Shown here: positions 1,137 to 19,602 of the stretch, one piece after another
Layout of the letters: the number at the start of each line of letters is the position of its first letter
Numbering within the stretch: the first letter of the stretch is position 1
UHGV virus genome: UHGV-0871375
Length of the DNA: 22,023 nt
Direction: 5' to 3' (one strand)
From: a virus
Notes under the pieces: model-generated
Told to the model about the DNA's origin: nothing
What the model saw: only the letters and a program-made list of their open reading frames with translations
Database searches by the model: none
Program-made: the position numbers and the translations under genes

Positions 1137-1156
1137 CCGCATCAATGCGGTTTTTT
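1137..1156 (+). terminator. short hairpin plus T6 run upstream of xis
   Basis: ccgca-tcaa-tgcgg followed by TTTTTT at 1151-1156. Short stem, so weak. Confidence 0.35.
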
Positions 1157-1157
1157 C

Positions 1158-1200
1158 TTGCGTGTAATTGCGGAGACTTTGCGATGTACTTGACACTTCA
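1158..1200 (+). promoter_or_regulatory. pI-like promoter with CII box (TTGC-N6-TTGC)
   Basis: TTGCGTGTAATTGC at 1158-1171 matches the lambda CII recognition repeat and the surrounding sequence matches lambda pI as I recall it. Its position overlapping the xis start is the lambda arrangement that lets Int be made without Xis. Confidence 0.55.
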
Positions 1201-1402
1201 GGAGTGGAACGCTCGCCAGCGACGCCCAAGAAGCCTTGAAACAGTTCGTCGATGGGTGCGCGAATGCAGGATATTCCCTCCTCCGGTTAAGGATGGAAGA
1301 GAGTATCTGTTCCACGAATCAGCGGTAAAGGTTGACTTAAATCGACCAGTAACAGGTAGCCTTTTGAAGAGGATCAGAAATGGGAAGAAGGCGAAGTCAT
1401 GA
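1184..1402 (+). CDS. xis: excisionase Xis (72 aa), lambda-type
   Basis: Translation MYLTLQEWNARQRRPRSLETVRRWVRECRIFPPPVKDGREYLFHESAVKVDL... is essentially lambda Xis from memory. The true start is the ATG at 1184, not the upstream ATG at 1145 used by the ORF track. The 3' end overlaps int as in lambda. Confidence 0.9.
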   Translation: MYLTLQEWNARQRRPRSLETVRRWVRECRIFPPPVKDGREYLFHESAVKVDLNRPVTGSLLKRIRNGKKAKS

Positions 1403-2453
1403 GCGCCGGGATTTACCCCCTAACCTTTATATAAGAAACAATGGATATTACTGCTACAGGGACCCAAGGACGGGTAAAGAGTTCGGATTAGGCAGAGACA
1501 GGAGGATAGCAATTACTGAAACAATACAGGCCAATATTGAGTTACTCTCAGACAGCGGACGCAAATCACTGATAGACAGAATTAAAGGCGGTGACGCAAT
1601 CACTCTTCATGTGTGGCTTGACCGATATGAAAGAATCCTCACCGAAAGGGGGATCAGGCCGAAAACTCTACTCGACTACGCCAGCAAAATCAGGGCAATC
1701 CGAAGAAAATTGCCGGACAAACCGCTCACTGACATATCAACGAAAGAAGTGGCAGCAATGCTAAACACCTACGTAGCAGAAGGTAAAGCAGCTTCCGCAA
1801 AATTAATCAGGTCAACCCTTGTTGACGTTTTTCGTGAAGCAATAGCCGAGGGGCATGTGGCAACGAATCCGGTAACAGCAACCCGTACAGCAAAGTCAGA
1901 AGTAAGGCGCTCAAGGCTGACAGCTAATGAGTATGTCGAGATTTACCATGCAGCCGAACCTCTCCCTATCTGGCTAAGGCTGGCGATGGATTTGGCCGTC
2001 GTTACAGGGCAGAGAGTCGGCGATTTGTGCAGAATGAAATGGTCAGACATAAACGACAACCATCTTCACATTGAACAGAGTAAAACAGGGGCTAAACTCG
2101 CCATTCCGCTAACGCTAACGATTGACGCGCTCAATATCTCATTGGCTGATACACTACAGAAATGCAGGGAGGCCAGCAGCAGTGAAACTATAATCGCATC
2201 AAAGCATCACGATCCGCTTTCCCCGAAAACAGTATCAAAGTATTTTACAAAGGCGAGAAATGCATCTGGACTCTCATTTGATGGAAACCCGCCAACATTC
2301 CATGAACTGCGTAGCCTGTCAGCGAGGCTATACCGGAACCAGATTGGCGATAAGTTTGCTCAACGTCTTCTCGGGCATAAATCAGATTCAATGGCGGCGC
2401 GGTATAGGGACAGCCGTGGACGGGAATGGGACAAAATTGAAATCGACAAATGA
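1380..2453 (+). CDS. int: tyrosine integrase, lambda Int family (357 aa)
   Basis: The first ~47 aa (arm-binding domain) match lambda Int as recalled. Catalytic residues are present in lambda-like context (VTGQRVGDL, EQSKTG, HELRSL, LLGHKS, ARYRD). Residues ~55-170 (core-binding domain) are clearly diverged from lambda. Confidence 0.95.
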   Translation: MGRRRSHERRDLPPNLYIRNNGYYCYRDPRTGKEFGLGRDRRIAITETIQANIELLSDSGRKSLIDRIKGGDAITLHVWLDRYERILTERGIRPKTLLDYASKIRAIRRKLPDKPLTDISTKEVAAMLNTYVAEGKAASAKLIRSTLVDVFREAIAEGHVATNPVTATRTAKSEVRRSRLTANEYVEIYHAAEPLPIWLRLAMDLAVVTGQRVGDLCRMKWSDINDNHLHIEQSKTGAKLAIPLTLTIDALNISLADTLQKCREASSSETIIASKHHDPLSPKTVSKYFTKARNASGLSFDGNPPTFHELRSLSARLYRNQIGDKFAQRLLGHKSDSMAARYRDSRGREWDKIEIDK

Positions 2454-2680
2454 TTTTATTTTGACTAATAATGACCTGCCCACATTAATTCATTGATAAT
2501 AAAAGAGATTTTAAATATACAACTTATTCACCTAAAGGGTGATAAAATCATACAAATCACCTAAAAATCATATAGTTGCATGCATTAGTGGTTAAATAAC
2601 AGACTACAAAATGCTACAAAACACAACATATCCAGTCACTATGAATCAACCACTTAGATGGTATTAGTGACCTGTAACAG
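2454..2680. other. attP-like attachment region with lambda-type arm sites; core not identified
   Basis: 2600-2680 is close to the reverse complement of the lambda attP P arm, including arm-type sites CAGTCACTAT (2631-2640) and TTAGTGACCT (2664-2673). A P'-arm-like site with one change (ATAATGACCT) lies at ~2472-2481. The lambda core GCTTTTTTATACTAA is absent; a CAACTTATT core-type-like motif sits at 2520-2528. Confidence 0.55.
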
Positions 2681-2684
2681 AGCA

Positions 2685-2726
2685 TTAGCGCAAGGTGATT
2701 TTTTGTCTTCTTGCGCTAATTTTTTG
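2685..2726 (+). terminator. sib/tI-like hairpin terminator downstream of int and attP
   Basis: ttagcgcaag ... cttgcgctaa inverted repeat followed by TTTTTT; matches my memory of the lambda sib/tI retroregulation element and lies in the same relative position. Confidence 0.6.
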
Positions 2727-3020
2727 TCAACACACTGGGTTGGCTTAATTTACAACCATGCTCAGTATCTCGATAAGCGCAGAGAAATGATGCAATGGTG
2801 GGCGGACTGGCTTGATGAAAAGGTGGAGTGATCCACCTTAACTATCGAATGACACAAATCCTTGCAATCCAGTGCAAAGCTTTGTGTACCTTAGTTTTGT
2901 CTCATAGGTAATTCTGCTTTAACTGCGATGCAGGAATCTGTCACCAGACGCACGTCTCGTTGTTTTATGGTTTTCCGTTCATGATTAATATGTTAGCTTG
3001 TCAAAGTTTGTGTTTAAGAT

Positions 3021-3691
3021 ATGGTGATTGATGCAATGTTAAGCGTTCAGATGACTCCACAAGCAAAAGTTAGCTTCGAGGAGCAATGTTTTTTTCATGC
3101 TTCAGGTCTTGTTGTTGCCCCAATAAATGTTGGAGCATTCTCCTACTTTGGCGCTAATTGTATGCTCGGCGGCTTTACGATGGGTAGATTTTGTTCAGTT
3201 GCTCCAGGAGTAAAAATTGGCCTTGGCGAGCATGAAACTGGGTATTTTTCTACGCATCCTTTTTCTTTGGCTCAAAAAATGGTTTTAAAATCCCTGATGG
3301 TATAGGAATGCAACGCGACCTCTCTCAACAGAAGCATGGTATACCAAGAATTGGTCATGACGTATGGATAGGTGCAAATGCGGTTATCAGGCGAGGTATA
3401 ACTATTGGTACTGGCGCTGTTATTGCTGCTGGCGCTATTGTCACCAAAAATGTCGAGCCATATTCAATCGTAGGTGGCGTTTCTGCAAAACACCTAGGGT
3501 ACAGATTTGAGGAATCAATCATCAAAGAGTTACTGGATAGCCAATGGTGGGAATATGATTTAAGCTCATTTATTGGGATTGATACAAGGACACCGACTAC
3601 TTTTTTAGAGCAGTTTAATGCTATAAAAGATAAAAAGAAGGCATCTTATAAGAGATTTACAATTCTTCCATCCGGTGAAATTGTTGAATAG
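3021..3691 (+). pseudogene. hexapeptide-repeat (left-handed beta-helix) acetyltransferase, XAT/CatB-Vat-like, split by a frameshift
   Basis: ORF 3021..3305 carries N-terminal motifs (SFEEQ..., GRFCSVAPG, STHPFSL) and ORF 3308..3691 in another frame carries the hexapeptide core ([13 protein letters not shown]...[12 protein letters not shown]...PYSIVGG) and a C-terminal WW motif (LLDSQWWEY). The two frames join into one ~215-aa protein (...HPFS[L/F][11 protein letters not shown]...) if one nucleotide is added in the T-rich stretch at ~3263-3269. Confidence 0.6.
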
Positions 3692-3712
3692 CGCATCCCT
3701 GCGCTATATTTT
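3690..3712. terminator. shared hairpin between the convergent acetyltransferase and tailspike genes
   Basis: agcgca-tccc-tgcgct perfect 6-bp stem at 3690-3705 lies in the 19-bp gap between the two stop codons, followed by ATATTTTA on the plus strand. Confidence 0.4.
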
Positions 3713-6077
3713 AAATAAACATAAGAATAAACATCAGAAGTTCCTCGTATCTGATACCATACTGATAACCAGCAGGTTTAATAATAACCTGCCTTCCTGT
3801 GTAATATTCCTCGTCGTACCACTCTCCTGTTTCATTGTTTTTAACACTCCTAATTAATACCTCTGGAGCATAAATATCATCCCATTCATCATAACACCAG
3901 AACGCATAGTTATTAGGGTCAAGACCGTATTTTCTGAGAATATTACCTACAGTTTGTGCACCAACACCGAAATGAATCCGAGCGCCATCACTCTTGATCT
4001 TTACTGCATCTTTAAATTTAAACCTCCAGATATTTTTCTTTATTTCAAGCGCAGCAAGACGCTCTGATTCTGTTGTTTTCTCGTCAGCCTCAATACGCAA
4101 TTTCAGCTCTTCATTCGACGTGTTGATACTGCCAGTACCAGCGTATACCTGTGACCATCGAAATGCTGATGTTCCGTTTGAGTTAACATTATCAACAGTT
4201 GGTTTTATAAGGCCAGAAAAATGAGTTTCAGGTGATGTATGAAGAAGATATCCGCCAGAATCGTTTTTTGTGCGTAATTCTATAGAGTCTACAATTATTC
4301 CACTGCGACGAATAATGATAGCGTTATTACCTTGTGCACCATTGTCTTTCTGAGTGGATAGTGTGTATCCGGTACGAGTATCTATCCTCCATCTTTTGGT
4401 ATCTTCTGATGCTTCCTGATTATAAAGATAAATAGAGTTATCAGTGTAATTATTTTTGCCATCAATATTTGTAAGTGTAAATGTGTTATTTACTTTGTCA
4501 TCATTGACCATTAAATTGGCAAGAGTGTAGAGAGGAGATGCAGTATACTGGCTGCAATTAAAACCACGTGCGTTTTGTATGTTAAGTAATGTTGTGACAT
4601 TAGCATTAATGCTAATATTGGAAAAGTTTGTCGCCTGATTTGCTCCATGTATTGATGATGTTACTCCTATCTGAGCTCCAATATCCAATGTACCAAAACT
4701 TACATTAATGAAGTTGTTTGCATCGCCACCATCTATAATTATTCCTTTTTTAGTCGTCGTATAACCTGATGCACTGCTAATCTCCAATCCATTAATGGTG
4801 CACACTCTTGGTCTGATGAGTCTAATTCCTACCCATTCATTTCCGTGGTCATATCCTCCTCCTGCTCTATGTATGGCTAGTCCATTAGCAATCAAAAGAA
4901 ATCTGTTATCAAGATTAATAGGGTGAAGCTGGCTATTAATGATAACGTTTGTCCATATAGACTCACCATACGCATAGCGATTTGATTCGAACACTCTATC
5001 CTGAGCATCATAAACACCGTTTAGGGATCTAGCAACATCGACATTGGTAAGATTGAAATATGTCTTCTGCTTAATTTCAAAAAAATTGGCAACGTTATGC
5101 GTTGTGATATCACTCACACGCATGGATAAAATACCTTCTTCTGGAGCGGTGCGAATGAATCCATCAAGGAACTGTTCATTATAACTTTTGGCTATCTGAT
5201 AACATCCAACAGCATCAATGCGTTCGATTGTGAACTGCCAACTATCACCACAGTTAAAAGACCATTCCCAACCGTACTTCTGTGCGAATTCATCAGAATC
5301 AATATTTGCAGTCTCAGAACAGAAAGATAAAAATCTAAATGTTGGTTTTGGCCTTAGATGATTAAGCCCGACACCTCTTGGGGTATATATGGCATTAGCG
5401 CCATTCCCGCCTTTGCTTTTAATTGTAAGGTGACTTAAACCAAATTCAACATCATGCTTAGTTGGTGCAGCGAAAACAAATCCATCTTTTGGTGATGTGG
5501 TATTATCAAACACAATAACCGTTTTACCCTGTCCATCGCCACACATATTCACTGGTGGTATATTAACTGGTCCAATTAAATTATATGTTCCAGTTGGAAT
5601 ATATAACTTTCCACCATCTCCAAGAGCATTTGCTGCTGCAATAAATGCCACCGTATCATCGTTAACACCGTCACCTTTCGCCCCATAATGCTGTGGCGTA
5701 ATTAACAGCATACGGTCAGAAAAAATCTCTTCCCTAAGTTGATCAGGATCGTATTTTAATACATTTGGAAAATAAAACTGCTGAGTGCCATATGCATCAT
5801 ATACAGCCATAGAATGGCCTTGCACAGTTACGAATTTGGCAATCTGCCCGTTATATACCGGATATCCAGCAGCGTTAATGATGATTGGTTGCGAAACAGG
5901 AACATGAGAGCCGTCTTCGTTCTCTACATAAACCTGAATCTGGTTTTCTGGACTTACCGGGTCAGTGTCAATTTTTCCGATATAAATTTTGCCGTTGGCT
6001 ACTGCTTTAAAAGAACGCGCCATAGTGAAAAGTTGCGAAGGCATACTCACTACAACATTGGCTGTAATGTCTGTCAT
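3711..6077 (-). CDS. tailspike protein (788 aa): P22-type head-binding N-domain, pectate-lyase-like beta-helix domain, C-terminal chaperone-like domain
   Basis: First ~110 aa ([41 protein letters not shown]...VTVQGHSMA) match the P22-family tailspike head-binding domain. [11 protein letters not shown] opens a right-handed beta-helix depolymerase-like region. The C-terminus ([11 protein letters not shown]...IWRFKFKD...[10 protein letters not shown]) resembles intramolecular chaperone (peptidase S74-type) domains. GGAG RBS is 9 nt upstream. Confidence 0.9.
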
Positions 6078-6241
6078 TTAATTTTCTCCAGACGTAGCAA
6101 TGCGGAACAAGATGCAACTTGCCCGGCATTGCATTAATGTAAGTTATGATTTGTTAACTATGAAATGAGTCTATGCAAAAAGATCTGTTGAATATTGCGT
6201 TCTATATATTTGGTTTTTGCACATTTCTGGTGTTTGCAAAG

Positions 6242-8239
6242 CTATTCTGACAACGAATCAGACTTCGCACCCTGCGTCAGGGCGTTAATTGCCTTTTGTG
6301 CCTGCTGCATGGTTTTCTCAAACTCTGTTGATCCGCGTGGGGTGTTTGCCATTCGGAGCATTGCATTTCTGAATGGCTCGCTCTCATAGGCGCGAGTAAG
6401 AAGTCCGTAGCTTACTGCTGCGCCAGTTGTCGCCGGGTTCATTGCCGTCCCATACCCAATAATGAACGGGATAGTTTGCTGCCCTGTGGGTGTTGTTACT
6501 GCCGCTTTTGCAGCCTGCTGCGTGGATTGTAGGTAGTTTTTTAATCCTTTCAGATAAGCAGCGTCCTGCCCCTTAAATGTGATGCCAGTCTGGTTTTGCA
6601 GGATGTTAAGCTGCCGAAGGAACTGGTCAGGGGATCCGCCAGATTTCTCCATCGCCTTTCCAATGATGCCATTGCGCATTTGCGCCCTGCCAACACGACC
6701 AACTGAGTTATACAGCGTCTTAATTTCCGATTTGTTCTTGCTGAATAGCATGTTGTTGACAACTTCCGGCGTCAGGTCTCCTTTCATGAGAACATTCTTC
6801 AGCCTGGTATTCTTTAGTTTCGCCGCTTCGTCAGCGTAGACGGCATTGGCCTGCTGATATTTACGGAGAGTATCGTTGCCAAGATTCTGACCAATGGCAC
6901 CATTGATATCGTCGGTCATCGCCTTGTAAACACGTTGAATGGCGGCATCGGAACGGTTTGGTAAGACTGGTCGCTCCCCCTTCACGTCCATTCTGAACTG
7001 GCTGCGCAGATCGCTTAATTGCTTCAAATCCAGATTAACCGGACCATCAGGGCCAGCATTGCGAACAAGCTCATCACGATATGACTGAAGTTTTGAAATT
7101 GTCTCGTTATCAGCTACCTTACCAAGCTTCTGCAGATTAGATATTTCTGTATCAATCTGCTGAATTGCTCGCGCAGGCTGAATGTTTACTCCAGCCATAG
7201 CATTCTGAACCTGCTCCAGTCGATTACCGGCGGCACGACGAATTCCTAATGTTTTCGCTTTAAGGCTGTCAATAACAACAGATGGATCATACTCACCGAA
7301 TTTATCAGCAAATCTCTGCACCAACTGGCTTCTCGCTTCCTGTTGCGTTGCTCTCATTCCGCTTGTGCCAGCCAGAGGGATATTTTCTGCTGTAGTCTGC
7401 GCCATTTTTCCGACGCGGGAAGTGGGTTGTAACAGGTCTGTGGTGTGCAGAGGAACGCCTTCACGCTCTGCAAATCTGATAGCTTGCTGTGCTTCTGGCG
7501 CAATAGCACCACGAACTCCACGATAAGCAGCACCTAATCCACGTCCGGCAGCGTTAATAGCACCGCCAGCCAGCACACCAACGCCTAAATCGGTGGCGAG
7601 TGCTTCCGCATCATCTTTCGCACTATTTGCAGCAAGTGATCCAACTGCGTTTTCTGCTAGAAGGCGAGTTGCCCCCTGAGCAATTCGACCAGCAAGTGTT
7701 GGTGCCTGTACCGCCGCTCTCTCAACTCCAGCAGGAGTGAGGTAAGGCAATGCTTCAGAAAATACCCTTCCCTCTGTCGTTTGTGGAGTCAGCGCACCTT
7801 GCTGAAGGCCAAAGTCCTGCTCTAATCCCTGCGTTGTTACTCGTGGTGCTGGTTGATATGTACCATCGCCAATACCGAGTTTACCGCCAGCCCAAGCCGC
7901 CGCGCTTGTTACAGCATCGGCAACTGATGCAGGTATGTTTGCCACGTTCACGCCAGCCTGCACCAGTCCACGACCAGTCTCTTTTACTGCTTCACCAAGA
8001 TCAGACATAAATCCACTTTGCTGTGGTTGTTGCTGTGCTACTGGTTGTTGTGTCTCCACTGGCTGCACAGATGGCAATGGATAGGCAGCATAGAAAGCTT
8101 GCTTAGCCTGCTCTGCATTTTCTCCGGCTTGCGGGGCCACGACTTCATTGAAGTATTGCTCCTGAGCCTGCGCTTTTTGTTCTGGTGCTAACGCCTGATA
8201 CTGTGGAGAGGCGATAACATCTTTCCATGCTTTAGCCAT
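6242..8239 (-). CDS. ejection/internal protein, P22 gp16-like (Sf6 gp13 position), 665 aa
   Basis: Gln/Ala-rich low-complexity N-region typical of ejection proteins; position immediately before the tailspike; start overlaps the upstream stop. Confidence 0.8.
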   Translation of the reverse strand: MAKAWKDVIASPQYQALAPEQKAQAQEQYFNEVVAPQAGENAEQAKQAFYAAYPLPSVQPVETQQPVAQQQPQQSGFMSDLGEAVKETGRGLVQAGVNVANIPASVADAVTSAAAWAGGKLGIGDGTYQPAPRVTTQGLEQDFGLQQGALTPQTTEGRVFSEALPYLTPAGVERAAVQAPTLAGRIAQGATRLLAENAVGSLAANSAKDDAEALATDLGVGVLAGGAINAAGRGLGAAYRGVRGAIAPEAQQAIRFAEREGVPLHTTDLLQPTSRVGKMAQTTAENIPLAGTSGMRATQQEARSQLVQRFADKFGEYDPSVVIDSLKAKTLGIRRAAGNRLEQVQNAMAGVNIQPARAIQQIDTEISNLQKLGKVADNETISKLQSYRDELVRNAGPDGPVNLDLKQLSDLRSQFRMDVKGERPVLPNRSDAAIQRVYKAMTDDINGAIGQNLGNDTLRKYQQANAVYADEAAKLKNTRLKNVLMKGDLTPEVVNNMLFSKNKSEIKTLYNSVGRVGRAQMRNGIIGKAMEKSGGSPDQFLRQLNILQNQTGITFKGQDAAYLKGLKNYLQSTQQAAKAAVTTPTGQQTIPFIIGYGTAMNPATTGAAVSYGLLTRAYESEPFRNAMLRMANTPRGSTEFEKTMQQAQKAINALTQGAKSDSLSE

Positions 8240-9540
8240 TAATCACCCCATAGTGAAGAAAAGTTACTGCCAGCAGGAGATTGTTGTCCTGGCGTATTCT
8301 GTACTGGCTCCTGATAATCAAACTGTTTTTTAACAGTGCTCAACTTGCTTTCAAGCTGATTTCTAATCTTTCCGATAGAGTCACGAAAAGCCTTTTCGCT
8401 CATTTTGGGGCTTAGGGCACCAACCGCATCGGATAATTTTTTACCCTCAGCATCTGAAAGAGCCCCCATACCCTTAAGGGACTGCACCATAGGAAGGAAA
8501 GTTTGAGCTTTAAAGGTGTCGAGCCTTGCTTCAAAGTTAGCCGCATCAGAGCCAGGAACTGTTGGAAACGCTGAGCGAATTCCTACTGCTTTTGAAAGGC
8601 CGGGGCTTTGCTCTATCTCGTTGAGAGAATCAAGCGCTGTGCTGAACGTATCAACTGCACCCTGAGCGGCGGCCTGCCTGTCAGCGCGGGCTATGTCAGC
8701 CTTTTGCCGAACATCTGCCTGTTTCTGTTTTAGCTCTTCAAGCTTTAACTGATTGCTTTCTCTGGCTATTTGTCTGTCCAGAGCCTTTTCTTGTAATTCT
8801 GCTCTTTGTATTTCGCGGGAAAGAGCAGCATTCTGTGCGCTGATGTTCTGTCCACGTATCTGGATGTCCTGCCCTCTCGCCTGAAGTGCTTCGCTGGCCT
8901 GATTGCTGCGGATTGTCTCTGCCAGTCTGCCTCGGTCAATCTCACGACCAGCTATCTTGTCCTGAACATTGAAGTAATCAATCGGACCAAGCGCAGCCAT
9001 TCCAAGGTGATCAACAAACTCACCAAACCCTGAAGGATTCTGCTGATACATCTGAGCAACGTTGTTAGGGTCAACACCGACGCGAGTCAGTTCCTTGGCG
9101 TTGTTTTGTAGCCATGATTGCATTGCTTCTGGAGACGATGCCGCAAGGCGAGCGCCAGCCGCCAAGGTGCCGATAGAGTTGCGCTGGTCTTCGTCTGCCC
9201 ACTTCATGCCAGACTGAATCTTCTCTAATTGACCAGGATATTTGGTCATCAAATCTCGCACCTGCTGTCGATCACCTGACTGGATGGCTGCCGCATATTC
9301 TTTTTGGAATGCAGCATCCGCTTCCTGTTGCTTTGCGGCTTGATATGTTTGAGCGACACTACCAAGTCCCTGCAACGCCTGAAGGCCGATGTTATTGCGA
9401 CCTGAACGCTCCATTTCGTTGTTCTGGCGAATATAGGCCAACGCCTCACTTACATCACTTGCCTTTGGCGCATTTGAGTTTTGCCCACCGATACCAGCAA
9501 GAAAACCGCCTGAGTTGATTCCTTGTTGCCAAGTAGCCAT
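8239..9540 (-). CDS. ejection protein, P22 gp20-like, 433 aa
   Basis: Size and position in the gp7-gp20-gp16 block; Gly/Ala/Gln-rich composition; coupled stop/start with the next gene. Confidence 0.8.
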   Translation of the reverse strand: MATWQQGINSGGFLAGIGGQNSNAPKASDVSEALAYIRQNNEMERSGRNNIGLQALQGLGSVAQTYQAAKQQEADAAFQKEYAAAIQSGDRQQVRDLMTKYPGQLEKIQSGMKWADEDQRNSIGTLAAGARLAASSPEAMQSWLQNNAKELTRVGVDPNNVAQMYQQNPSGFGEFVDHLGMAALGPIDYFNVQDKIAGREIDRGRLAETIRSNQASEALQARGQDIQIRGQNISAQNAALSREIQRAELQEKALDRQIARESNQLKLEELKQKQADVRQKADIARADRQAAAQGAVDTFSTALDSLNEIEQSPGLSKAVGIRSAFPTVPGSDAANFEARLDTFKAQTFLPMVQSLKGMGALSDAEGKKLSDAVGALSPKMSEKAFRDSIGKIRNQLESKLSTVKKQFDYQEPVQNTPGQQSPAGSNFSSLWGD

Positions 9541-9549
9541 ATTCCCACC

Positions 9550-10224
9550 TTAAAACAATGATCCAAGACCACCGATAATGCCGCCACCAATTGCGCCAAC
9601 AGCCGTACCTATTCCTGGCACCACAGAGCCAATCATCGCCCCTGATGCCGCACCGCTCATGGCACCTCCCAAGGCTGATTGCAGTCCTGATGGTCGGTTA
9701 GCATTAGCCGCAGATGCTGCCGCCTGCTGTTGATACAATTGGCTGACGTTGTTAGCGTAGTTCTGTCCGGCGTTTGCCTGACCTGTAAGAGCACCAAGGC
9801 CGATATTTGCCAGATTGTTGTAGTTGTTCATCTGACCTGACAGCCAGTTTTGACCGAGTGTAGGTGCGATTGCTGCTAACTGGTTTCCTGTTGCTGTAGA
9901 GCCTAATCCACCCGTTGCCTCTGCTGCTGCCAGACTCTGGTAACGCGCCTGCCCTGCAAGGTCTTTATACTGCTGGGAGTTGTAATACTGGTTAAGCGCC
10001 TGACCTTGCCCCTGAAGAGAGGAAAGATTCTGCAACTCTGATACATACTGCTGAGCGAGTGGAGTGAACGGTGCAAGGTTTTGCATGTTCGTCTGCCACA
10101 TTTCACGCTGCAATTCGATACCCTTTTCAGTTGCGCGTGCCTGGGCTTTTGAACCGCCATCACTGCCACCTTTGCAGTAAACAGCTTTGCTGAGGTGCTT
10201 ATTGGCAATCTGGAGAATTAACAT
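9550..10224 (-). CDS. ejection protein, P22 gp7-like, 224 aa
   Basis: Size and position; glycine-rich hydrophobic C-terminus (GAMSGAASGAMIGSVVPGIGTAVGAIGGGIIGG). ATG at 10224 overlaps the upstream gene by 26 nt. Confidence 0.75.
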   Translation of the reverse strand: MLILQIANKHLSKAVYCKGGSDGGSKAQARATEKGIELQREMWQTNMQNLAPFTPLAQQYVSELQNLSSLQGQGQALNQYYNSQQYKDLAGQARYQSLAAAEATGGLGSTATGNQLAAIAPTLGQNWLSGQMNNYNNLANIGLGALTGQANAGQNYANNVSQLYQQQAAASAANANRPSGLQSALGGAMSGAASGAMIGSVVPGIGTAVGAIGGGIIGGLGSLF

Positions 10225-15986: not shown

Positions 15987-18185
15987 TTACTGCTGTGGTT
16001 GTTGCTGAGTTGATTTTTGTAGGATGCTGCTGATGTCCATGCGCTGCGCATGACCCTGTGCCTGACTTTTCAGGACAAGCTCTGCATCAGCACGGGCATT
16101 GTCTCCTTGCTGTTGCTGGAACTGTCCGAGCAGTTTCAGAGCCTCGCGGATATCAGATTTCTGCTGACTATCGGCAGATGCGAGGATTTTCACAACATTT
16201 GCCGCAGCAACCTGAGCATCAGTCTGTGCCTGGAATGCTTTAACCTGAATGGCTTCCTGTTCGTTCTGCGCTTTCTGCAATTCAGCCTGACCAGCAAGAA
16301 GCTGACCTTGCGCTGCAACCATAGCCGGATCTGGCTGACTGGCCTGTTGTTGTTTCGCCTGCTCAACCATCTGCTGCTCTTCTGGCGTTCTCGGCTTGAT
16401 AACTCCAGACAGAAGCAACTGATTGCGGTTGTATTCTTTAAGGTCATCCATCCCTTCGCCGTCCATATTGTCGAGAATCATCGACGATACAAGGTCGTGC
16501 TTCGGCGTTCCTGGTGGGATAAGTGCCAGCATGGAAAGTAACGACTTAACCGTTGCATCACGGCGAGTAGCGAACGACTGACCGACATCGACAGTCACTT
16601 CATAGTTACCCTGCGAAAGGTCGTTAAGCGCGATAACCTGGCCTGTCTGACGGTCAACCACTTCACCAGTCATCAGCGCCACGTCATCGCTGCCGTCCTC
16701 ATTAACGATACGCATCGGCGTATCGCTGCCATAGACTTCACGAGCCATAGAAAGCCACACAACGCCAGCGCGACGCATGGATTTAGCCATGTTGTCCATG
16801 TAGATATAGGACTGCGTATCCATCCGGTTAAAGATGCTATCAACGGTATCGGTAGCAACGTTGCTCGGCATGTTCTCAAGCTGCGACGCGCCTGTAATTT
16901 GCTGAATAGCCGTTCCGGTGTACTGCAATAGCCCGGCAAGAGCAGGAGGCATTTGTGTCGGAGGTGTATAACTGCTGACCTGAGCCTGCGCAGTAATATC
17001 TCCGTTTTTGTTTTTCAGACTTACCATCGGCAGGAACGCCGGGCGCTTTTTGTTGCGCTCCGCCCAATGAGTGGCGAGAGGACCAGGAATCATGTCAACA
17101 TCAACTACAGGAATTCCATCACCGCCAGCCTGAGTAGCGTTATCTGCAATCATGGAAACCATCAGGTTCTCAAGACGCTGTGCATCCATCGCTTTTGCTG
17201 CGTGGCCTTCGATTCGCTCCTGATTATCAACAAATGAGCGACGCCCATATACCGGGATGAGTGGAATATGTTCGCCCGGAATACGCTTCGGTTCTTCCAG
17301 CCATTCAGCGCCAGACAGAAGACCGCAATAAACGCGGCGTTTCTTCACTGTCCGCTCACCGATCAGTTCGAATGAACCATCGGTTAGCTCGTCGACAATA
17401 TCTTTGATTTGATCTTCATCATAGATTGCCGTTTCTCCGCTAACAGGGTTGCGCCATGCTGAGAGCTTCACCTTCTCTATGCGAACTTCGTAGTAGCGTC
17501 CAACATAGATGGCATCAGGCGTTGACCAGTCATATTGAGTGCCAGTGTCATCACGAGAAAGGCTTGCCGCAATGGAATCAGGGTATTCAGCCTCGAACGC
17601 TTTAGGCGTCATGGAGAACATTTCCATAGCCCACATAGCATCAGAGCGGTCATATTGCTTGCTGTCCTGATCGAAGAAAACGCATGTCGCTGGGTCGTAA
17701 ACAGGAAGAAGGCTGATGCGTCGCTGCTCGTTACTCGGATCCATTTCATCTTCGTAATCGGCACACATGCGGAAACAACCGAATCCGCCCGTTACAGCAT
17801 CATCAAATGCGTTATCACACGCTTCACCACCGGATGTTTCCTGATAGTCAGCGCGGAATTTGCCGTTCATCTTTTCGGCTAACGCTTCCGATGCCTTGTC
17901 ATCCTTCGGCCTGAATTTAACGCTGATGCGATTCTGTCGATACTCGCCAATGATGCGATCACATTCACGGGCAATCTTATTCAGTTCAAAACGCGGGTAA
18001 TGCTCAAACCTGCCCTCATCAAACGAGTAACCAGCGTTTGTGCTACCTTCCCACTGTGCGCCGGACACCCTGACGAAACGTTGAGCCTCAATAATCTGCT
18101 CACGCATATCCTGCGTTGCTGACCAGGCATTATCAAAGTTGCACAGCACCTTGCGATGCCAGTCAGTCATCTTTTTTTCTGCCAT
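15987..18185 (-). CDS. portal protein, P22 gp1 / Sf6 gp3 family, 732 aa
   Basis: Length and conserved segments (EHIPLIPVYG..., C-terminal PAMVAAQGQLLAGQAELQKAQNE barrel region) match the P22-family portal. Confidence 0.95.
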   Translation of the reverse strand: MAEKKMTDWHRKVLCNFDNAWSATQDMREQIIEAQRFVRVSGAQWEGSTNAGYSFDEGRFEHYPRFELNKIARECDRIIGEYRQNRISVKFRPKDDKASEALAEKMNGKFRADYQETSGGEACDNAFDDAVTGGFGCFRMCADYEDEMDPSNEQRRISLLPVYDPATCVFFDQDSKQYDRSDAMWAMEMFSMTPKAFEAEYPDSIAASLSRDDTGTQYDWSTPDAIYVGRYYEVRIEKVKLSAWRNPVSGETAIYDEDQIKDIVDELTDGSFELIGERTVKKRRVYCGLLSGAEWLEEPKRIPGEHIPLIPVYGRRSFVDNQERIEGHAAKAMDAQRLENLMVSMIADNATQAGGDGIPVVDVDMIPGPLATHWAERNKKRPAFLPMVSLKNKNGDITAQAQVSSYTPPTQMPPALAGLLQYTGTAIQQITGASQLENMPSNVATDTVDSIFNRMDTQSYIYMDNMAKSMRRAGVVWLSMAREVYGSDTPMRIVNEDGSDDVALMTGEVVDRQTGQVIALNDLSQGNYEVTVDVGQSFATRRDATVKSLLSMLALIPPGTPKHDLVSSMILDNMDGEGMDDLKEYNRNQLLLSGVIKPRTPEEQQMVEQAKQQQASQPDPAMVAAQGQLLAGQAELQKAQNEQEAIQVKAFQAQTDAQVAAANVVKILASADSQQKSDIREALKLLGQFQQQQGDNARADAELVLKSQAQGHAQRMDISSILQKSTQQQPQQ

Positions 18186-18186
18186 A

Positions 18187-19602
18187 TCAACCTACACCAC
18201 AAGGAATTGAGTAACTGGAATAGTCGGGTTGCGCAGCCGACTCCGGGCAATGCATACACATCATCAGCGCATCAGCCAGGTTAGGAGATGGAATACCGAG
18301 CTTCTGCTTCATTTCGACCTTAGTCATTAGCTCCAGCTTCCCGTTTTTATTGAATTTGCGCTGAATCTGCGTCAGTTCTGCAAACAGCTTCTCCAGCATA
18401 TTCTCGCCTATCGCTTCTTTATCGAAACTCAGCATGTCGTCGGGAGCTGCATACTCACCGTGGACAACCGCCCGATATGTCAGATACAGCCTGTCAGCCA
18501 GCGCGTAATAGAATTGCGCTCGCTTATTGCGGAATACATCGCCAATAGTGCGAACGTTGTCTCCCTGCACGACTTCATCAGCCCATGCTCCGGCCTGATA
18601 AGGCGCATCTTCATCGAATGGCGATTCGCTGCCCTTGAACATCGTGGCGGTAATTTTCTTGCCGGAGAATGCTTCCGTTGTCTGTCTGCGTAGCCCTGCA
18701 CCGACACCATCGCCATCCCACAGGTAATGGTCAGCGCCGTCTTCAATCGCCAGCGAAGTAGCCCAGTCAGCACCCTCGTTGATGTCCATCAGCAGACCTT
18801 CGGCAATGCGCTTAACTACCGAACCGTGGCGCGATGCATAACCTTTAGCATCCGGTCCTGTATCTGACGGGTCATGCGCAGAGACAACAGCGCCTTTCGC
18901 CTTCCATCCGAGTTTCTTGTGCGCATCGGTTGCGGCTTCAAGCCATTCACATTTGATAATTGCCATATCACTTGCGCTCACTGGCTCACCAAGCCAGATG
19001 TGACGATACAGTGTCGGATTTCTGCGTTTGCACTCTTCCATCTCCAGACGGAGAACTTCAGGAAAGTGCGGGTTGTCGGTGTAGTTCACCGTCAGTAGGC
19101 AAATATCATCGGGAGGATTTACGACGAATCGCTGATAGGTATCGTCGAGGATGTTCTTCGGGTTAAAGCTCACCCATATTTCGGAAAACGGCTTGCGGAT
19201 GGTTGGTATCAGGATATCCCATGATTCCTTCGTTACCGCTTCCGCTTCTTCCACCCAGCAGATATCAATGCCTTCGAGCGATTTAATCTTCGTCGGGTTG
19301 TTTTTGATGCCGTAGAACATGAATTCAGCATTCGTTCCGAGATGACGAATCATGGAACGCTGAATTTCAAACTCAGCCGAATACCCTTCCCGCTCGATGG
19401 TGTCTTCAAGCAACCGGATTACCGAATCACTGATACTGTTTTGCAGCTCGCGAGCGCAGAGAATACGCACCGGCTGCCGACGCGCCGCTTCAACAAGCAG
19501 CCTGGCAATTGCCCATGACTTACCGCTACCTCGACCGCCTTTGGCGACTTTGTAGCGATGCGCCTCAATGAACGGTTCAAAGATAGGATTAATCGAGGTC
19601 AT
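18187..19602 (-). CDS. terminase large subunit, 471 aa
   Basis: Walker A (KVAKGGRGSGKSWAIARLL) near the N-terminus; Sf6 gp2-like length; ATGA overlap with the small-subunit gene. Confidence 0.95.
   Translation of the reverse strand: MTSINPIFEPFIEAHRYKVAKGGRGSGKSWAIARLLVEAARRQPVRILCARELQNSISDSVIRLLEDTIEREGYSAEFEIQRSMIRHLGTNAEFMFYGIKNNPTKIKSLEGIDICWVEEAEAVTKESWDILIPTIRKPFSEIWVSFNPKNILDDTYQRFVVNPPDDICLLTVNYTDNPHFPEVLRLEMEECKRRNPTLYRHIWLGEPVSASDMAIIKCEWLEAATDAHKKLGWKAKGAVVSAHDPSDTGPDAKGYASRHGSVVKRIAEGLLMDINEGADWATSLAIEDGADHYLWDGDGVGAGLRRQTTEAFSGKKITATMFKGSESPFDEDAPYQAGAWADEVVQGDNVRTIGDVFRNKRAQFYYALADRLYLTYRAVVHGEYAAPDDMLSFDKEAIGENMLEKLFAELTQIQRKFNKNGKLELMTKVEMKQKLGIPSPNLADALMMCMHCPESAAQPDYSSYSIPCGVG

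What the first reader, a model, noticed from the sequence alone, without database searches (positions are those of the whole stretch)
3711..6077. Modular tailspike with a self-cleaving chaperone-like C-terminus
A conserved P22-type head-binding domain is fused to a pectate-lyase-like beta-helix and ends in a segment resembling the intramolecular chaperone domain of endosialidases and T5 pb1 (TSNEELK...[10 protein letters not shown]). The receptor-binding part is AT-richer than the virion genes and forms, with the acetyltransferase, a low-GC host-interaction module. The polysaccharide substrate is unknown.
Basis: partly seen in the sequence, partly recalled or inferred. Interest (0 to 1): 0.5.

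Follow-up and report, generated by a model that had tools for sequence, protein, structure and literature searches.

The report
Capsule-targeting P22-like tailspike with self-cleaving chaperone
This is the tailspike of a P22-like temperate E. coli phage: a standard virion-attachment domain joined to a sugar-cutting beta-helix and a self-removing folding domain. Its hosts suggest it targets a rare capsule type rather than the O-antigen.

Summary
ORF 3711-6077 (minus strand, 788 aa) has four parts:
- a P22 head-binding domain (aa 1-113, Pfam E 9e-67);
- a short endosialidase-stalk-like junction (aa 621-653);
- a C-terminal intramolecular chaperone, Peptidase_S74 (aa 654-788).

The chaperone call rests on sequence (PDB profile E 9e-40 to K1F endoNF), on fold (the top 10 Foldseek hits are all chaperone structures) and on all five T5 pb1 catalytic-site residues (D629, R640, T653, S654, K659). 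Cleavage itself was not tested.

The low-GC module is real: 0.38 against about 0.51 for the virion genes. The tailspike travels with a convergent CatB-like O-acetyltransferase in prophages at four or more integration sites. That gene is frameshifted in this window.

New here: the four complete E. coli genomes with this exact beta-helix have different O-antigens (O16, O25b-like, O21 and a fourth that is not O16). All four carry one rare group-2 capsule locus, found in 22 of 5426 genomes. Across the wider beta-helix family the figure is 11 of 14 genomes (Fisher p about 1e-25). The spike is therefore most likely a capsule depolymerase, laid out like phage CUS-3 (endosialidase plus NeuO).

It is a new member of a known kind.

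The parts
3711..6077 (-). Tailspike gene, 788 aa plus stop (87.6 kDa precursor)
   Evidence: ORF list and translation. RefSeq annotates copies at least 98.8% identical as 'phage tailspike protein' in four complete E. coli genomes. The exact protein occurs on contigs in 76 blocks of the assembly index.
5739..6077 (-). P22-type head-binding (virion adaptor) domain, aa 1-113
   Evidence: PF09008 at 222.9 bits, E 8.7e-67. Matches Sf6 gp14 (7sg7) aa 1-120 at E 1.7e-64 and the P22 gp9 head-binding structures.
5691..5738 (-). Linker and recombination junction (aa 114-129, just after the ...YDPDQL motif at aa 110-114), where similarity to other P22-like tailspikes ends
   Evidence: Megablast hits to 30 phages and about 1000 E. 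coli genomes stop at ORF nucleotides 314-380. The AF2 model has pLDDT below 50 for aa 85-124.
4218..5690 (-). Right-handed parallel beta-helix, aa 130-620; predicted receptor-binding and depolymerase domain
4119..4217 (-). Stalk/junction segment, aa 621-653, ending at the predicted scissile bond T653|S654; it carries D629 and R640
   Evidence: Weak match to the last 33 positions of PF12219 End_tail_spike (18-20 bits). Aligns with T5 pb1 residues 1231-1263 and with K1F endoNF.
3714..4118 (-). Intramolecular chaperone / Peptidase_S74 domain, aa 654-788 (16.0 kDa, predicted to be released). Ser654 codon is 4116-4118 and Lys659 codon is 4101-4103.
   Evidence: Single-sequence phmmer against PDB: 7y5s 1e-19, 4uw8 1.5e-14, 3gw6 2e-10. 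Family profile: 3gw6 8.6e-40, 3gud 2.9e-39. Foldseek on the C-terminal model returns 3gw6, 4uw8 and 3gud as its top 10 hits. T653, S654 and K659 are invariant in 16 relatives.
3688..3707 (+). Terminator-like hairpin between the convergent tailspike and acetyltransferase genes
   Evidence: Terminator scan: 8-pair stem, 4 G-C pairs, then a T-rich tail. It is conserved in other copies of the cassette.
3021..3691 (+). CatB/Vat-like hexapeptide O-acetyltransferase, disrupted here by a -1 frameshift (T5 at 3260-3264 against T6 elsewhere), giving ORFs 3021-3305 and 3308-3691
   Evidence: Hexapep Pfam hits. DNA alignment to intact 218-aa copies, WP_000953884. NCBIfam gives below-cutoff matches to CatB/Vat and WcaF-type acetyltransferases.
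2748..2831 (+). 3' remnant of a CUS-3/IntS-type integrase gene; a recombination scar at the outer edge of the cassette
   Evidence: blastn to the 3' end of CUS-3 int (90% over 120 nt) and to the GF4 locus. The translation ends ...YNHAQYLDKRREMMQWWADWLDEKVE*.
1145..2453 (+). Lambda-type excisionase (1145-1402) and integrase (1380-2453); context only. The window is in the excised attP gene order.
   Evidence: Pfam Exc, Arm-DNA-bind_1 and Phage_integrase. In genomes the same int/xis pair lies next to torS, and the tailspike end lies next to torT (L017).
6242..10224 (-). P22-like ejection-protein genes directly upstream of the tailspike (665-aa gp16-type protein, 433-aa Inj_translocase, 224-aa gp7); context only
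   Evidence: Pfam Inj_translocase and P22_gp7. PF26808 Phage_P22_gp16 is recorded on the 665-aa product in loci with the same gene order (L015, L017, L018).

Best explanation
The gene encodes the receptor-destroying tailspike of a P22-like temperate coliphage. It is assembled from exchangeable modules.

1. **Attachment.** Residues 1-113 dock the spike on the tail. Membership of the head-binding family is shown by homology; the docking role is inferred from that family.
2. **Receptor binding and cutting.** Residues 130-620 form a right-handed beta-helix that binds and probably cleaves a surface polysaccharide. The fold is shown; enzymatic activity and chemistry are inferred. The most likely substrate is the capsule made by one rare group-2 (kps) locus. 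Its region 2 has two genes, one of which is a polymerase-like protein with a Bcs3-type ribofuranosyltransferase/phosphatase module whose relatives carry a KpsC/KpsS-type module. That implies an acidic polymer containing ribose and probably Kdo. This step rests on host co-occurrence, and I put it at about 0.65.
3. **Folding and self-cleavage.** Residues 654-788 are an intramolecular chaperone. It should nucleate trimer folding through the junction at aa 621-653. Once three chains are in register, Ser654 activated by Lys659 would cut the T653|S654 bond. That would release a 16-kDa fragment and leave a 71.7-kDa mature spike. Homology, fold and all catalytic residues are shown; cleavage is inferred, at about 0.85.
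4. **Capsule modification.** The convergent cytoplasmic hexapeptide O-acetyltransferase travels with the spike. It probably acetylates the same polymer during its cytoplasmic synthesis in lysogens, blunting attack by related phages, as NeuO of phage CUS-3 does for the K1 capsule. This is inferred by analogy. In this window the gene is frameshifted.
For: **Architecture.**
- Pfam domains; PDB sequence hits.

**Chaperone.**
- All 16 C-termini in the family match PF13884.
- The family profile hits 3gw6 at 8.6e-40, 3gud at 2.9e-39 and 4uw8 at 2.3e-27.
- The Foldseek top 10 are all chaperone structures.
- D629, R640, T653, S654 and K659 align with D1239, R1250, T1263, S1264 and K1269 of T5 pb1, whose roles are described in PMC4690869.
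- T653, S654 and K659 are invariant.

**Substrate.**
- Hosts of the beta-helix at 99.7% identity or more have O16, an O25-family cluster with a wbbJKL-type 3' end and O21. TUM9803 lacks the O16 wzy gene.
- The kps region 2 of AH21A060 occurs in only 22 of 5426 genomes. Those 22 include all four exact hosts and 7 of the 10 genomes with variant helices.
- Fisher p is 9e-26, or about 1e-21 after removing duplicate assemblies.
- The prophages sit at different sites (bio/ybhB, argW, torT, and a fourth site that was not identified), so they were acquired independently.
- The polymerase has a Bcs3-like module (E 2.8e-28), and its relatives carry PF05159 and HAD domains.

**Module.**
- Tailspike and acetyltransferase are adjacent in all 14 copies inspected.
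- CUS-3 has the order tailspike, neuO, int.
- The acetyltransferase shares the hexapeptide core with NeuO (34% identity over 79 aa).
Against: - No biochemical data exist for cleavage, depolymerase activity or substrate.
- The capsule link is correlative. It rests on 12 independent strains carrying a helix of this family, 9 of which have the capsule locus. Some of them may share ancestry, for example within ST131.
- Three genomes carry a related helix without the capsule locus (88-93% nucleotide identity over the first 634 nt only, in a non-P22-like prophage).
- Half of the genomes with the capsule locus have no such spike.
- The K type is not named. The link to the KrkA-like enzyme of O16:H5-ST131 (PMC12887879) could not be verified.
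- Peptidase_S74 is below Pfam's cutoff in the full-length protein (19.0 against 22 bits).
- PHROG 8280 labels a distant relative as colanic-acid degrading.
- The beta-helix fold alone does not distinguish hydrolase, lyase, or binding without catalysis.
Confidence: 0.65

Rival explanations
1. It is a conventional O-antigen-specific endoglycosidase tailspike, as in P22, Sf6 and HK620. Under this reading the linked acetyltransferase is an O-antigen serotype-converting enzyme.
For: This is the default for P22-like phages. The head-binding domain is 87-98% identical at the DNA level to those of Sf6, HK620 and others. O16 and the O25b-like cluster share wbbJ/K/L-type genes, so they could share a Glc-Rha(OAc)-GlcNAc substructure. 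That substructure is recalled from memory, not tested here.
Against: Hosts of essentially identical helices have three different O loci, including O21, which has an unrelated gene set. The O16 wzy gene is absent from three of the four hosts. The rare kps locus is present in four of four. A soluble cytoplasmic hexapeptide acetyltransferase suits a polymer built in the cytoplasm, although WbbJ-type enzymes do also act on O-units.
Confidence: 0.15
2. It degrades colanic acid or another polysaccharide common to all E. coli.
For: PHROG 8280, labelled 'tail spike protein with colanic acid degradation activity', matches aa 1-655 (E 3e-107). All three hosts whose wca region was inspected carry wca genes.
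Against: Most of that PHROG score can be accounted for by the head-binding domain: other PHROGs that match only aa 1-121 reach up to 282 of its 362 bits. tblastn with the helix alone finds no characterised colanic-acid enzyme, only phage PSK1. A ubiquitous substrate cannot explain enrichment of about 200-fold in genomes with one rare kps locus.
Confidence: 0.05
3. The C-terminal domain is a relic. It still helps trimerisation but is not cleaved, or the spike binds its receptor without cutting it.
For: The full-length Pfam S74 score is below threshold. Four family members lack the domain altogether, and one (P0018) has a degenerate Ser/Lys motif. No active site has been mapped in the helix.
Against: All five residues of the pb1 catalytic site are present, and T653, S654 and K659 are invariant across 16 relatives. 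A ladder of invariant acidic residues lies in the helix. The close structural relatives are enzymes.
Confidence: 0.1

Closest known systems
Phage CUS-3 tailspike (endosialidase SiaK1) with the neuO acetyltransferase
   Same: Both are P22-like temperate coliphages. In both, a P22 head-binding domain is fused to a capsule-specific centre and a C-terminal intramolecular chaperone. The next gene downstream is a hexapeptide O-acetyltransferase, followed by int. The CUS-3 virion genes are about 95% identical to the window over 46% of its length.
   Different: The centre here is a beta-helix, not a GH58 sialidase beta-propeller. Only the last 33 stalk residues resemble endosialidase. The acetyltransferase is convergent, is only distantly related to NeuO (34% over 79 aa) and has no heptanucleotide repeat tract. 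The predicted capsule is not polysialic acid.
K1F endosialidase CIMCD (PDB 3GW6), T5 pb1 (4UW8), GA-1/phi29 gp12 (3GUD), Kp7 tail fibre (7Y5S)
   Same: The C-terminal domain is homologous: profile E-values from 9e-40 to 2e-27, the same predicted fold, and the same S-x4-K dyad with its auxiliary Asp, Arg and Thr.
   Different: The upstream receptor-binding domains are unrelated. Identity within the chaperone is only about 25-32%.
Coliphage K5A lyase KflA (PDB 2X3H)
   Different: Identity is 14% with no detectable sequence homology. KflA belongs to a lytic T7/SP6-like phage with a different adaptor. Its lyase residues were not compared.
P22 gp9, Sf6 gp14 and HK620 gp9 tailspikes
   Same: The head-binding domain is near-identical, the gene position is the same, and the receptor domain is a beta-helix.
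   Different: Those spikes end in a beta-prism or 'caudal fin' trimerisation domain with no cleaved chaperone, and they target O-antigens.
Escherichia phage PSK1 tail spike (PP541512)
   Same: It is the only cultured phage in the collection with a homologous helix: 56% identity over 97% of the domain.
   Different: Its genome is 39.6 kb and it is not one of the P22-like phages found with the head-binding part; its adaptor domain was not examined here. Its receptor is unpublished.

Membership tests
Peptidase_S74 / C-terminal intramolecular chaperone domain (CIMCD) | Sequence match to the family model (PF13884) at or above the curated cutoff | tested here: met
   The full-length protein scores 19.0 bits, below the cutoff of 22. 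The isolated C-terminal 183 aa score 22.3 bits, a marginal pass, and all 16 family C-termini match (best E 2.2e-16). The independent PDB profile search is unambiguous: 3gw6 at 8.6e-40.
Peptidase_S74 / C-terminal intramolecular chaperone domain (CIMCD) | Ser-Lys catalytic dyad (S-x4-K) at the domain start, with the preceding Thr and the upstream Asp and Arg that complete the site | tested here: met
   S654 and K659, T653, D629 and R640 align with S1264, K1269, T1263, D1239 and R1250 of T5 pb1 (roles from PMC4690869). T653, S654 and K659 are invariant in 16 relatives.
Peptidase_S74 / C-terminal intramolecular chaperone domain (CIMCD) | Fold: helical core plus beta-hairpin 'tentacle', as in 3GW6, 4UW8 and 3GUD | tested here: met
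   The AF2 model of aa 606-788 has pLDDT of 84-97 across aa 656-788. The Foldseek top 10 hits are all 3gw6, 4uw8 or 3gud (E 1.8e-9 to 1.7e-5, probability 1.0), followed by the MyRF ICA domain. The model is a monomer; the trimer was not modelled.
Peptidase_S74 / C-terminal intramolecular chaperone domain (CIMCD) | Autoproteolytic release after trimer assembly | not testable with these tools
   This needs expression followed by SDS-PAGE or mass spectrometry. The predicted products are 71.7 kDa and 16.0 kDa.
P22-like tailspike (gp9 family) | N-terminal Head_binding domain (PF09008) | tested here: met
   222.9 bits, covering the full profile 1-113.
P22-like tailspike (gp9 family) | Gene lies downstream of the gp7/gp20/gp16 ejection genes in a P22-type virion module | tested here: met
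   RefSeq annotation of syntenic prophages agrees.
P22-like tailspike (gp9 family) | C-terminal beta-prism / caudal-fin trimerisation domain retained in the mature spike | tested here: not met
   Beyond aa 120 there is no meaningful similarity to P22, Sf6 or HK620 spikes: only two negligible stretches in Sf6, i-E 7e2 and 4e3. The C-terminus is an S74 chaperone instead.
Pectate-lyase-like beta-helix (PF12708) / 'GH28-related' | Match to PF12708 and a right-handed parallel beta-helix fold | tested here: met
Pectate-lyase-like beta-helix (PF12708) / 'GH28-related' | True GH28 membership (match to the Glyco_hydro_28 model) | tested here: not met
   No Glyco_hydro_28 hit at E of 1 or below in Pfam. 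Polygalacturonases appear only as fold neighbours at 11-14% identity. The RefSeq name 'GH28-related' on relatives reflects the N-terminal PF12708 cap only.
Endosialidase (GH58) tailspikes | Sialidase beta-propeller catalytic domain | tested here: not met
   Only the last 33 positions of PF12219 match, below cutoff. The centre is a beta-helix.

The most novel reading that the evidence does not exclude
This tailspike family may be the dedicated depolymerase for a serologically unassigned group-2 capsule, probably a ribofuranose/Kdo polymer, that is carried by some ST131 (O25b:H4) strains and by O16, O21 and other E. coli lineages. Its linked acetyltransferase would then be a second, independent NeuO-like phage gene that modifies capsule form. 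If so, this would be the second CUS-3-type capsule-specific temperate P22-like phage. To my knowledge it would also be the first sequence-defined phage enzyme against this class of capsule.
Probability: 0.45. Interest if true: 0.55.

Novelty: new member of a known kind. Interest (0 to 1): 0.4.

Why it matters
The architecture adds little on its own. Modular tailspikes with a cleaved C-terminal chaperone have been known since the K1F, K5 and CUS-3 work.

The useful result is a testable pairing between one spike and one capsule locus. That locus is rare, has no assigned K type here, and occurs in clinically important lineages, including ST131 bloodstream isolates. If the pairing holds, the spike becomes a ready-made typing and decapsulation reagent, and a receptor-binding module for engineered phages or pyocins. 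The linked acetyltransferase would be a second case of a prophage editing its host's capsule.

The analysis also shows that prophage tailspikes can be matched to K loci by genome co-occurrence alone.

Tried and rejected
- **O16 as receptor.** The first host examined is O16. A chimeric query (helix plus O16 wzy), read against a helix-only baseline, showed that the other three hosts lack O16 wzy. Their loci are O25-family and O21. Rejected.
- **Colanic acid.** This was suggested by the PHROG 8280 label. It does not fit the association with a rare locus, and no characterised homologue was found.
- **Naming the K type.**
  - Neither the full-length polymerase nor its N-terminal 428 aa gave any PDB hit in the N-terminal region, so identity with the KrkA-like enzyme of PMC12887879 is unverified.
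  - No 1113-aa KrkA-like protein was recognisable among the homologues.
  - The ST131 clade A type K100 (PMC13171598) seems unlikely, because region 2 has no CDP-ribitol genes. This is my inference.
  - Accession searches in the literature found nothing.
- **Phage PSK1 and host strains.** No paper was found on PSK1. Serotypes of the host strains were not looked up in the papers that name them; only NRZ14408 is mentioned at all.
- **Phase variation of the acetyltransferase.** Two of 14 copies carry independent -1 slips in T tracts. That is too few to separate phase variation from mutation or homopolymer sequencing error.
- **NCBIfam.** It gave no hit for the tailspike.
Full report
**1. Observation**

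The window has an uninterrupted ORF at 3711-6077 on the minus strand, 788 aa long.

Pfam finds four domains:
- Head_binding, aa 1-113: 222.9 bits, E 8.7e-67.
- Pect-lyase_RHGA_epim, aa 130-204: 38.3 bits against a cutoff of 27.
- End_tail_spike, the last 33 positions only, at aa 621-653: 18.4 bits, below cutoff.
- Peptidase_S74, aa 654-718: 19.0 bits, below the cutoff of 22.

The coordinates and the description are therefore correct.

**2. Genomic context**

The window is the virion half of a P22-like temperate phage. On the minus strand it runs from terminase and portal (15987-19602), through coat, gp4/gp10/needle and the gp7/gp20/gp16 ejection genes (6242-10224), to the tailspike.

Beyond the tailspike lie:
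- a convergent hexapeptide acetyltransferase (3021-3691, plus strand);
- about 560 bp of non-coding DNA;
- a lambda-type int/xis pair (1145-2453).

This is the excised (attP) gene order. In bacterial genomes the same int/xis pair lies next to torS, and the tailspike end lies next to torT (L017). The virion genes are 93-96% identical to those of phages vB_EcoP-720R6, Kapi1, Huey and CUS-3.

**3. Modular structure**

DNA similarity to 30 phages and about 1000 E. coli genomes stops at ORF nucleotides 314-380, which is the end of the head-binding domain. The full-length gene occurs in only 4 of 5426 complete E. coli genomes, at 98.8% identity or more.

The central domain has only 32 clusters of relatives among 5.8 billion proteins. 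In those relatives it is joined to different N-terminal adaptors: PF09008, PF18668, PF03906 (T7 tail-fibre N-terminus) and PF27114.

One strain, NRZ14408, carries the helix twice:
- on a P22-like prophage;
- as an 860-aa protein, named 'GH28-related' by RefSeq, on an unrelated prophage.

Among cultured phages, only PSK1 has a homologous helix (56% identity).

**4. The beta-helix**

An AlphaFold2 model built from 27 relatives has pLDDT mostly above 90 for aa 130-500 and 61-84 for aa 510-620, and shows a long stack of short strands.

These neighbours include lyases, hydrolases and epimerases at 8-17% identity. The fold is therefore established but the chemistry is not. There is no Glyco_hydro_28 hit.

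Invariant acidic residues D278, D288, E334, D347 and E372, together with the nearly invariant D305, D357, D360, E364 and D410, are candidates for the active site. This is inference.

**5. The C-terminal chaperone**

Four lines of evidence agree.

- **Sequence.** The last 180 residues match Klebsiella phage Kp7 tail fibre 7Y5S (1e-19), T5 pb1 4UW8 (1.5e-14), 9VVR (1e-11), K1F endosialidase chaperone 3GW6 (2e-10), 6EU4 and the neck-appendage chaperone 3GUD.
- **Family profile.** A profile of 16 family C-termini raises these to 9VVR 6.7e-50, 3GW6 8.6e-40, 3GUD 2.9e-39 and 4UW8 2.3e-27. All 16 members match PF13884. The window fragment scores 22.3 bits when scanned alone.
- **Catalytic residues.** The T5 pb1 paper (PMC4690869) assigns the autoproteolytic site to Ser1264 and Lys1269, with Thr1263, Asp1239 and Arg1250 of a neighbouring chain. 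In the alignment these correspond to S654, K659, T653, D629 and R640, and all five are conserved. T653, S654 and K659 are invariant across the family.
- **Fold.** A separate AF2 model of aa 606-788 has pLDDT of 84-97 across aa 656-788. Its ten best Foldseek hits are all 3GW6, 4UW8 or 3GUD, followed by the eukaryotic MyRF ICA domain.

By analogy, cleavage at T653|S654 would give a 71.7-kDa mature chain and a 16.0-kDa released fragment. Cleavage itself was not tested. Four family members lack the domain, and one has a degenerate motif.

**6. The low-GC module and the acetyltransferase**

| Region | GC |
|---|---|
| Head-binding part | 0.413 |
| Beta-helix | 0.380 (GC3 0.27) |
| Chaperone | 0.378 |
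| Acetyltransferase | 0.407 |
| Virion genes | 0.49-0.52 |
| int | 0.476 |

(All values.)

The tailspike and a 218-aa CatB/Vat-like hexapeptide O-acetyltransferase (WP_000953884) are adjacent and convergent in every copy examined. These prophages sit at bio/ybhB, argW, torS-torT and a fourth site that was not identified. Some have the arc/ant immunity region upstream of the tailspike and some do not.

Shared homology ends at window position 2853, 2748 or 2523, depending on the copy. Positions 2748-2831 are the 3' remnant of a CUS-3/IntS-type integrase, which is a recombination scar. A terminator-like hairpin at 3688-3707 separates the two genes.

In this window the acetyltransferase has a -1 frameshift: T5 at 3260-3264 where other copies have T6. 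The GF4 copy has an independent -1 slip in a T7 tract. The other 12 copies are intact. I cannot tell mutation, slippage and homopolymer sequencing error apart.

**7. Substrate**

| Host of the helix at 99.7% identity or more | O-antigen locus |
|---|---|
| AH21A060 | O16 cluster |
| AVS0578 | O25-family cluster with a wbbJKL-type 3' end |
| GF4 | O21 |
| TUM9803 | lacks O16 wzy; otherwise unknown |

These hosts do not share an O type.

AH21A060 carries a group-2 kps locus whose serotype-specific region 2 has only two genes:
- a 1169-aa polymerase-like protein;
- a 329-aa protein with weak, below-cutoff matches to alpha/beta-hydrolase and TPR models.

That region 2 occurs in just 22 of 5426 complete genomes, all at 99.7% identity or more. 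The 22 include all four hosts of the exact helix. They also include 7 of the 10 genomes carrying variant helices: LSC52, A10, NRZ14408 (two assemblies), 2018-10-1CC, TBU0218 and GF43. Three genomes with a more diverged, non-P22 version lack it.

The association is 11 of 14 against 11 of 5412, Fisher p 9e-26. After removing duplicate assemblies it is about 1e-21. For the four exact hosts alone, the chance expectation is 2.7e-10.

The hosts differ in O type, source and prophage integration site, and both sequence variants of the capsule locus are represented. Shared ancestry alone is therefore an unlikely explanation.

The polymerase has a module homologous to the ribofuranosyltransferase/phosphatase part of the Haemophilus Bcs3 capsule polymerase (E 2.8e-28). 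Its relatives carry Capsule_synth (KpsC/KpsS-type) and HAD domains. This points to a polymer containing ribofuranose and probably Kdo.

PMC12887879 reports a KrkA-like enzyme in O16:H5-ST131 and suggests K19 or K97 for it. I could not confirm that it is the same protein.

**8. Mechanism and comparison**

The best-supported picture is a capsule-specific tailspike.

1. The head-binding domain mounts the spike on the tail.
2. The beta-helix binds and depolymerises the capsule so that the phage can reach the outer membrane.
3. The chaperone folds the trimer and then removes itself.
4. In lysogens, the linked cytoplasmic acetyltransferase would modify the same polymer, which group-2 systems assemble in the cytoplasm.

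The closest precedent is phage CUS-3. It has a P22 head-binding domain, an endosialidase centre and the same chaperone family, followed by the hexapeptide acetyltransferase gene neuO and then int. NeuO is a phage-encoded, phase-variable capsule O-acetyltransferase that increases resistance to phage (abstract of PMC13001214). The acetyltransferase here shares only the hexapeptide core with NeuO and lies on the opposite strand. It is a positional analogue, not an orthologue.

**9. Verdict**

The architecture is a new member of a known kind. Its main value lies in the specific, testable prediction of its capsule target.

Noticed in passing
window 3021-3691 (+), frameshift at 3260-3264: The CatB-like O-acetyltransferase is split into two ORFs by a -1 change in a T tract (T5 against T6). 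The GF4 copy has an independent -1 in the T7 tract that corresponds to window 3089-3095. The other 12 copies inspected are intact. The cause could be inactivation, low-rate slippage or a homopolymer sequencing error.
   Followed up: partly
window 2748-2831 (+): This is the 3' end of a CUS-3/IntS-type integrase gene (...YNHAQYLDKRREMMQWWADWLDEKVE*). It is stranded between the acetyltransferase and a lambda-type int/xis pair, which makes it a scar from module exchange between P22-like phages with different integrases.
   Followed up: partly
window 1145-3020, compared with L017: The window is in the excised (attP) gene order. In genomes the same int/xis pair sits beside torS, and the tailspike/acetyltransferase end sits beside torT. 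The attP core within about 2460-2750 was not mapped.
   Followed up: no
E. coli genomes GF4, TUM9803, 2018-10-1CC/TBU0218; NRZ14408: In one search, GF4 has three and TUM9803 and 2018-10-1CC/TBU0218 two places that match the same beta-helix. Only the best place in each of these genomes was inspected. NRZ14408 carries the helix on two unrelated prophages, one P22-like and one other. Where confirmed, this is polylysogeny by phages predicted to use the same receptor.
   Followed up: partly
L013 3629-8246 (kps region 2 of AH21A060): This two-gene, low-GC (0.32) region 2 encodes a 1169-aa polymerase-like protein with a Bcs3-like ribofuranosyltransferase/phosphatase module, and a 329-aa protein with weak alpha/beta-hydrolase and TPR matches. 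RefSeq annotates both only as 'hypothetical protein'. The locus occurs in 22 of 5426 complete genomes, including four records labelled O25b:H4-ST131.
   Followed up: partly
window 6078-6241: The tailspike follows the gp16-type ejection gene directly. The arc/mnt/ant immunity (immI) region found at this position in CUS-3 and in several other carriers of the same spike (L003, L006, L021) is absent here.
   Followed up: no
tailspike ORF nucleotides 389-1022 against 1023-1860 (window about 5056-5689 against 4218-5055): The first third or so of the beta-helix (aa 130-341) is 88-99% identical at the DNA level across variant spikes. The distal part drops below megablast detection. This indicates a second recombination or diversification boundary inside the receptor-binding domain.
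   Followed up: no
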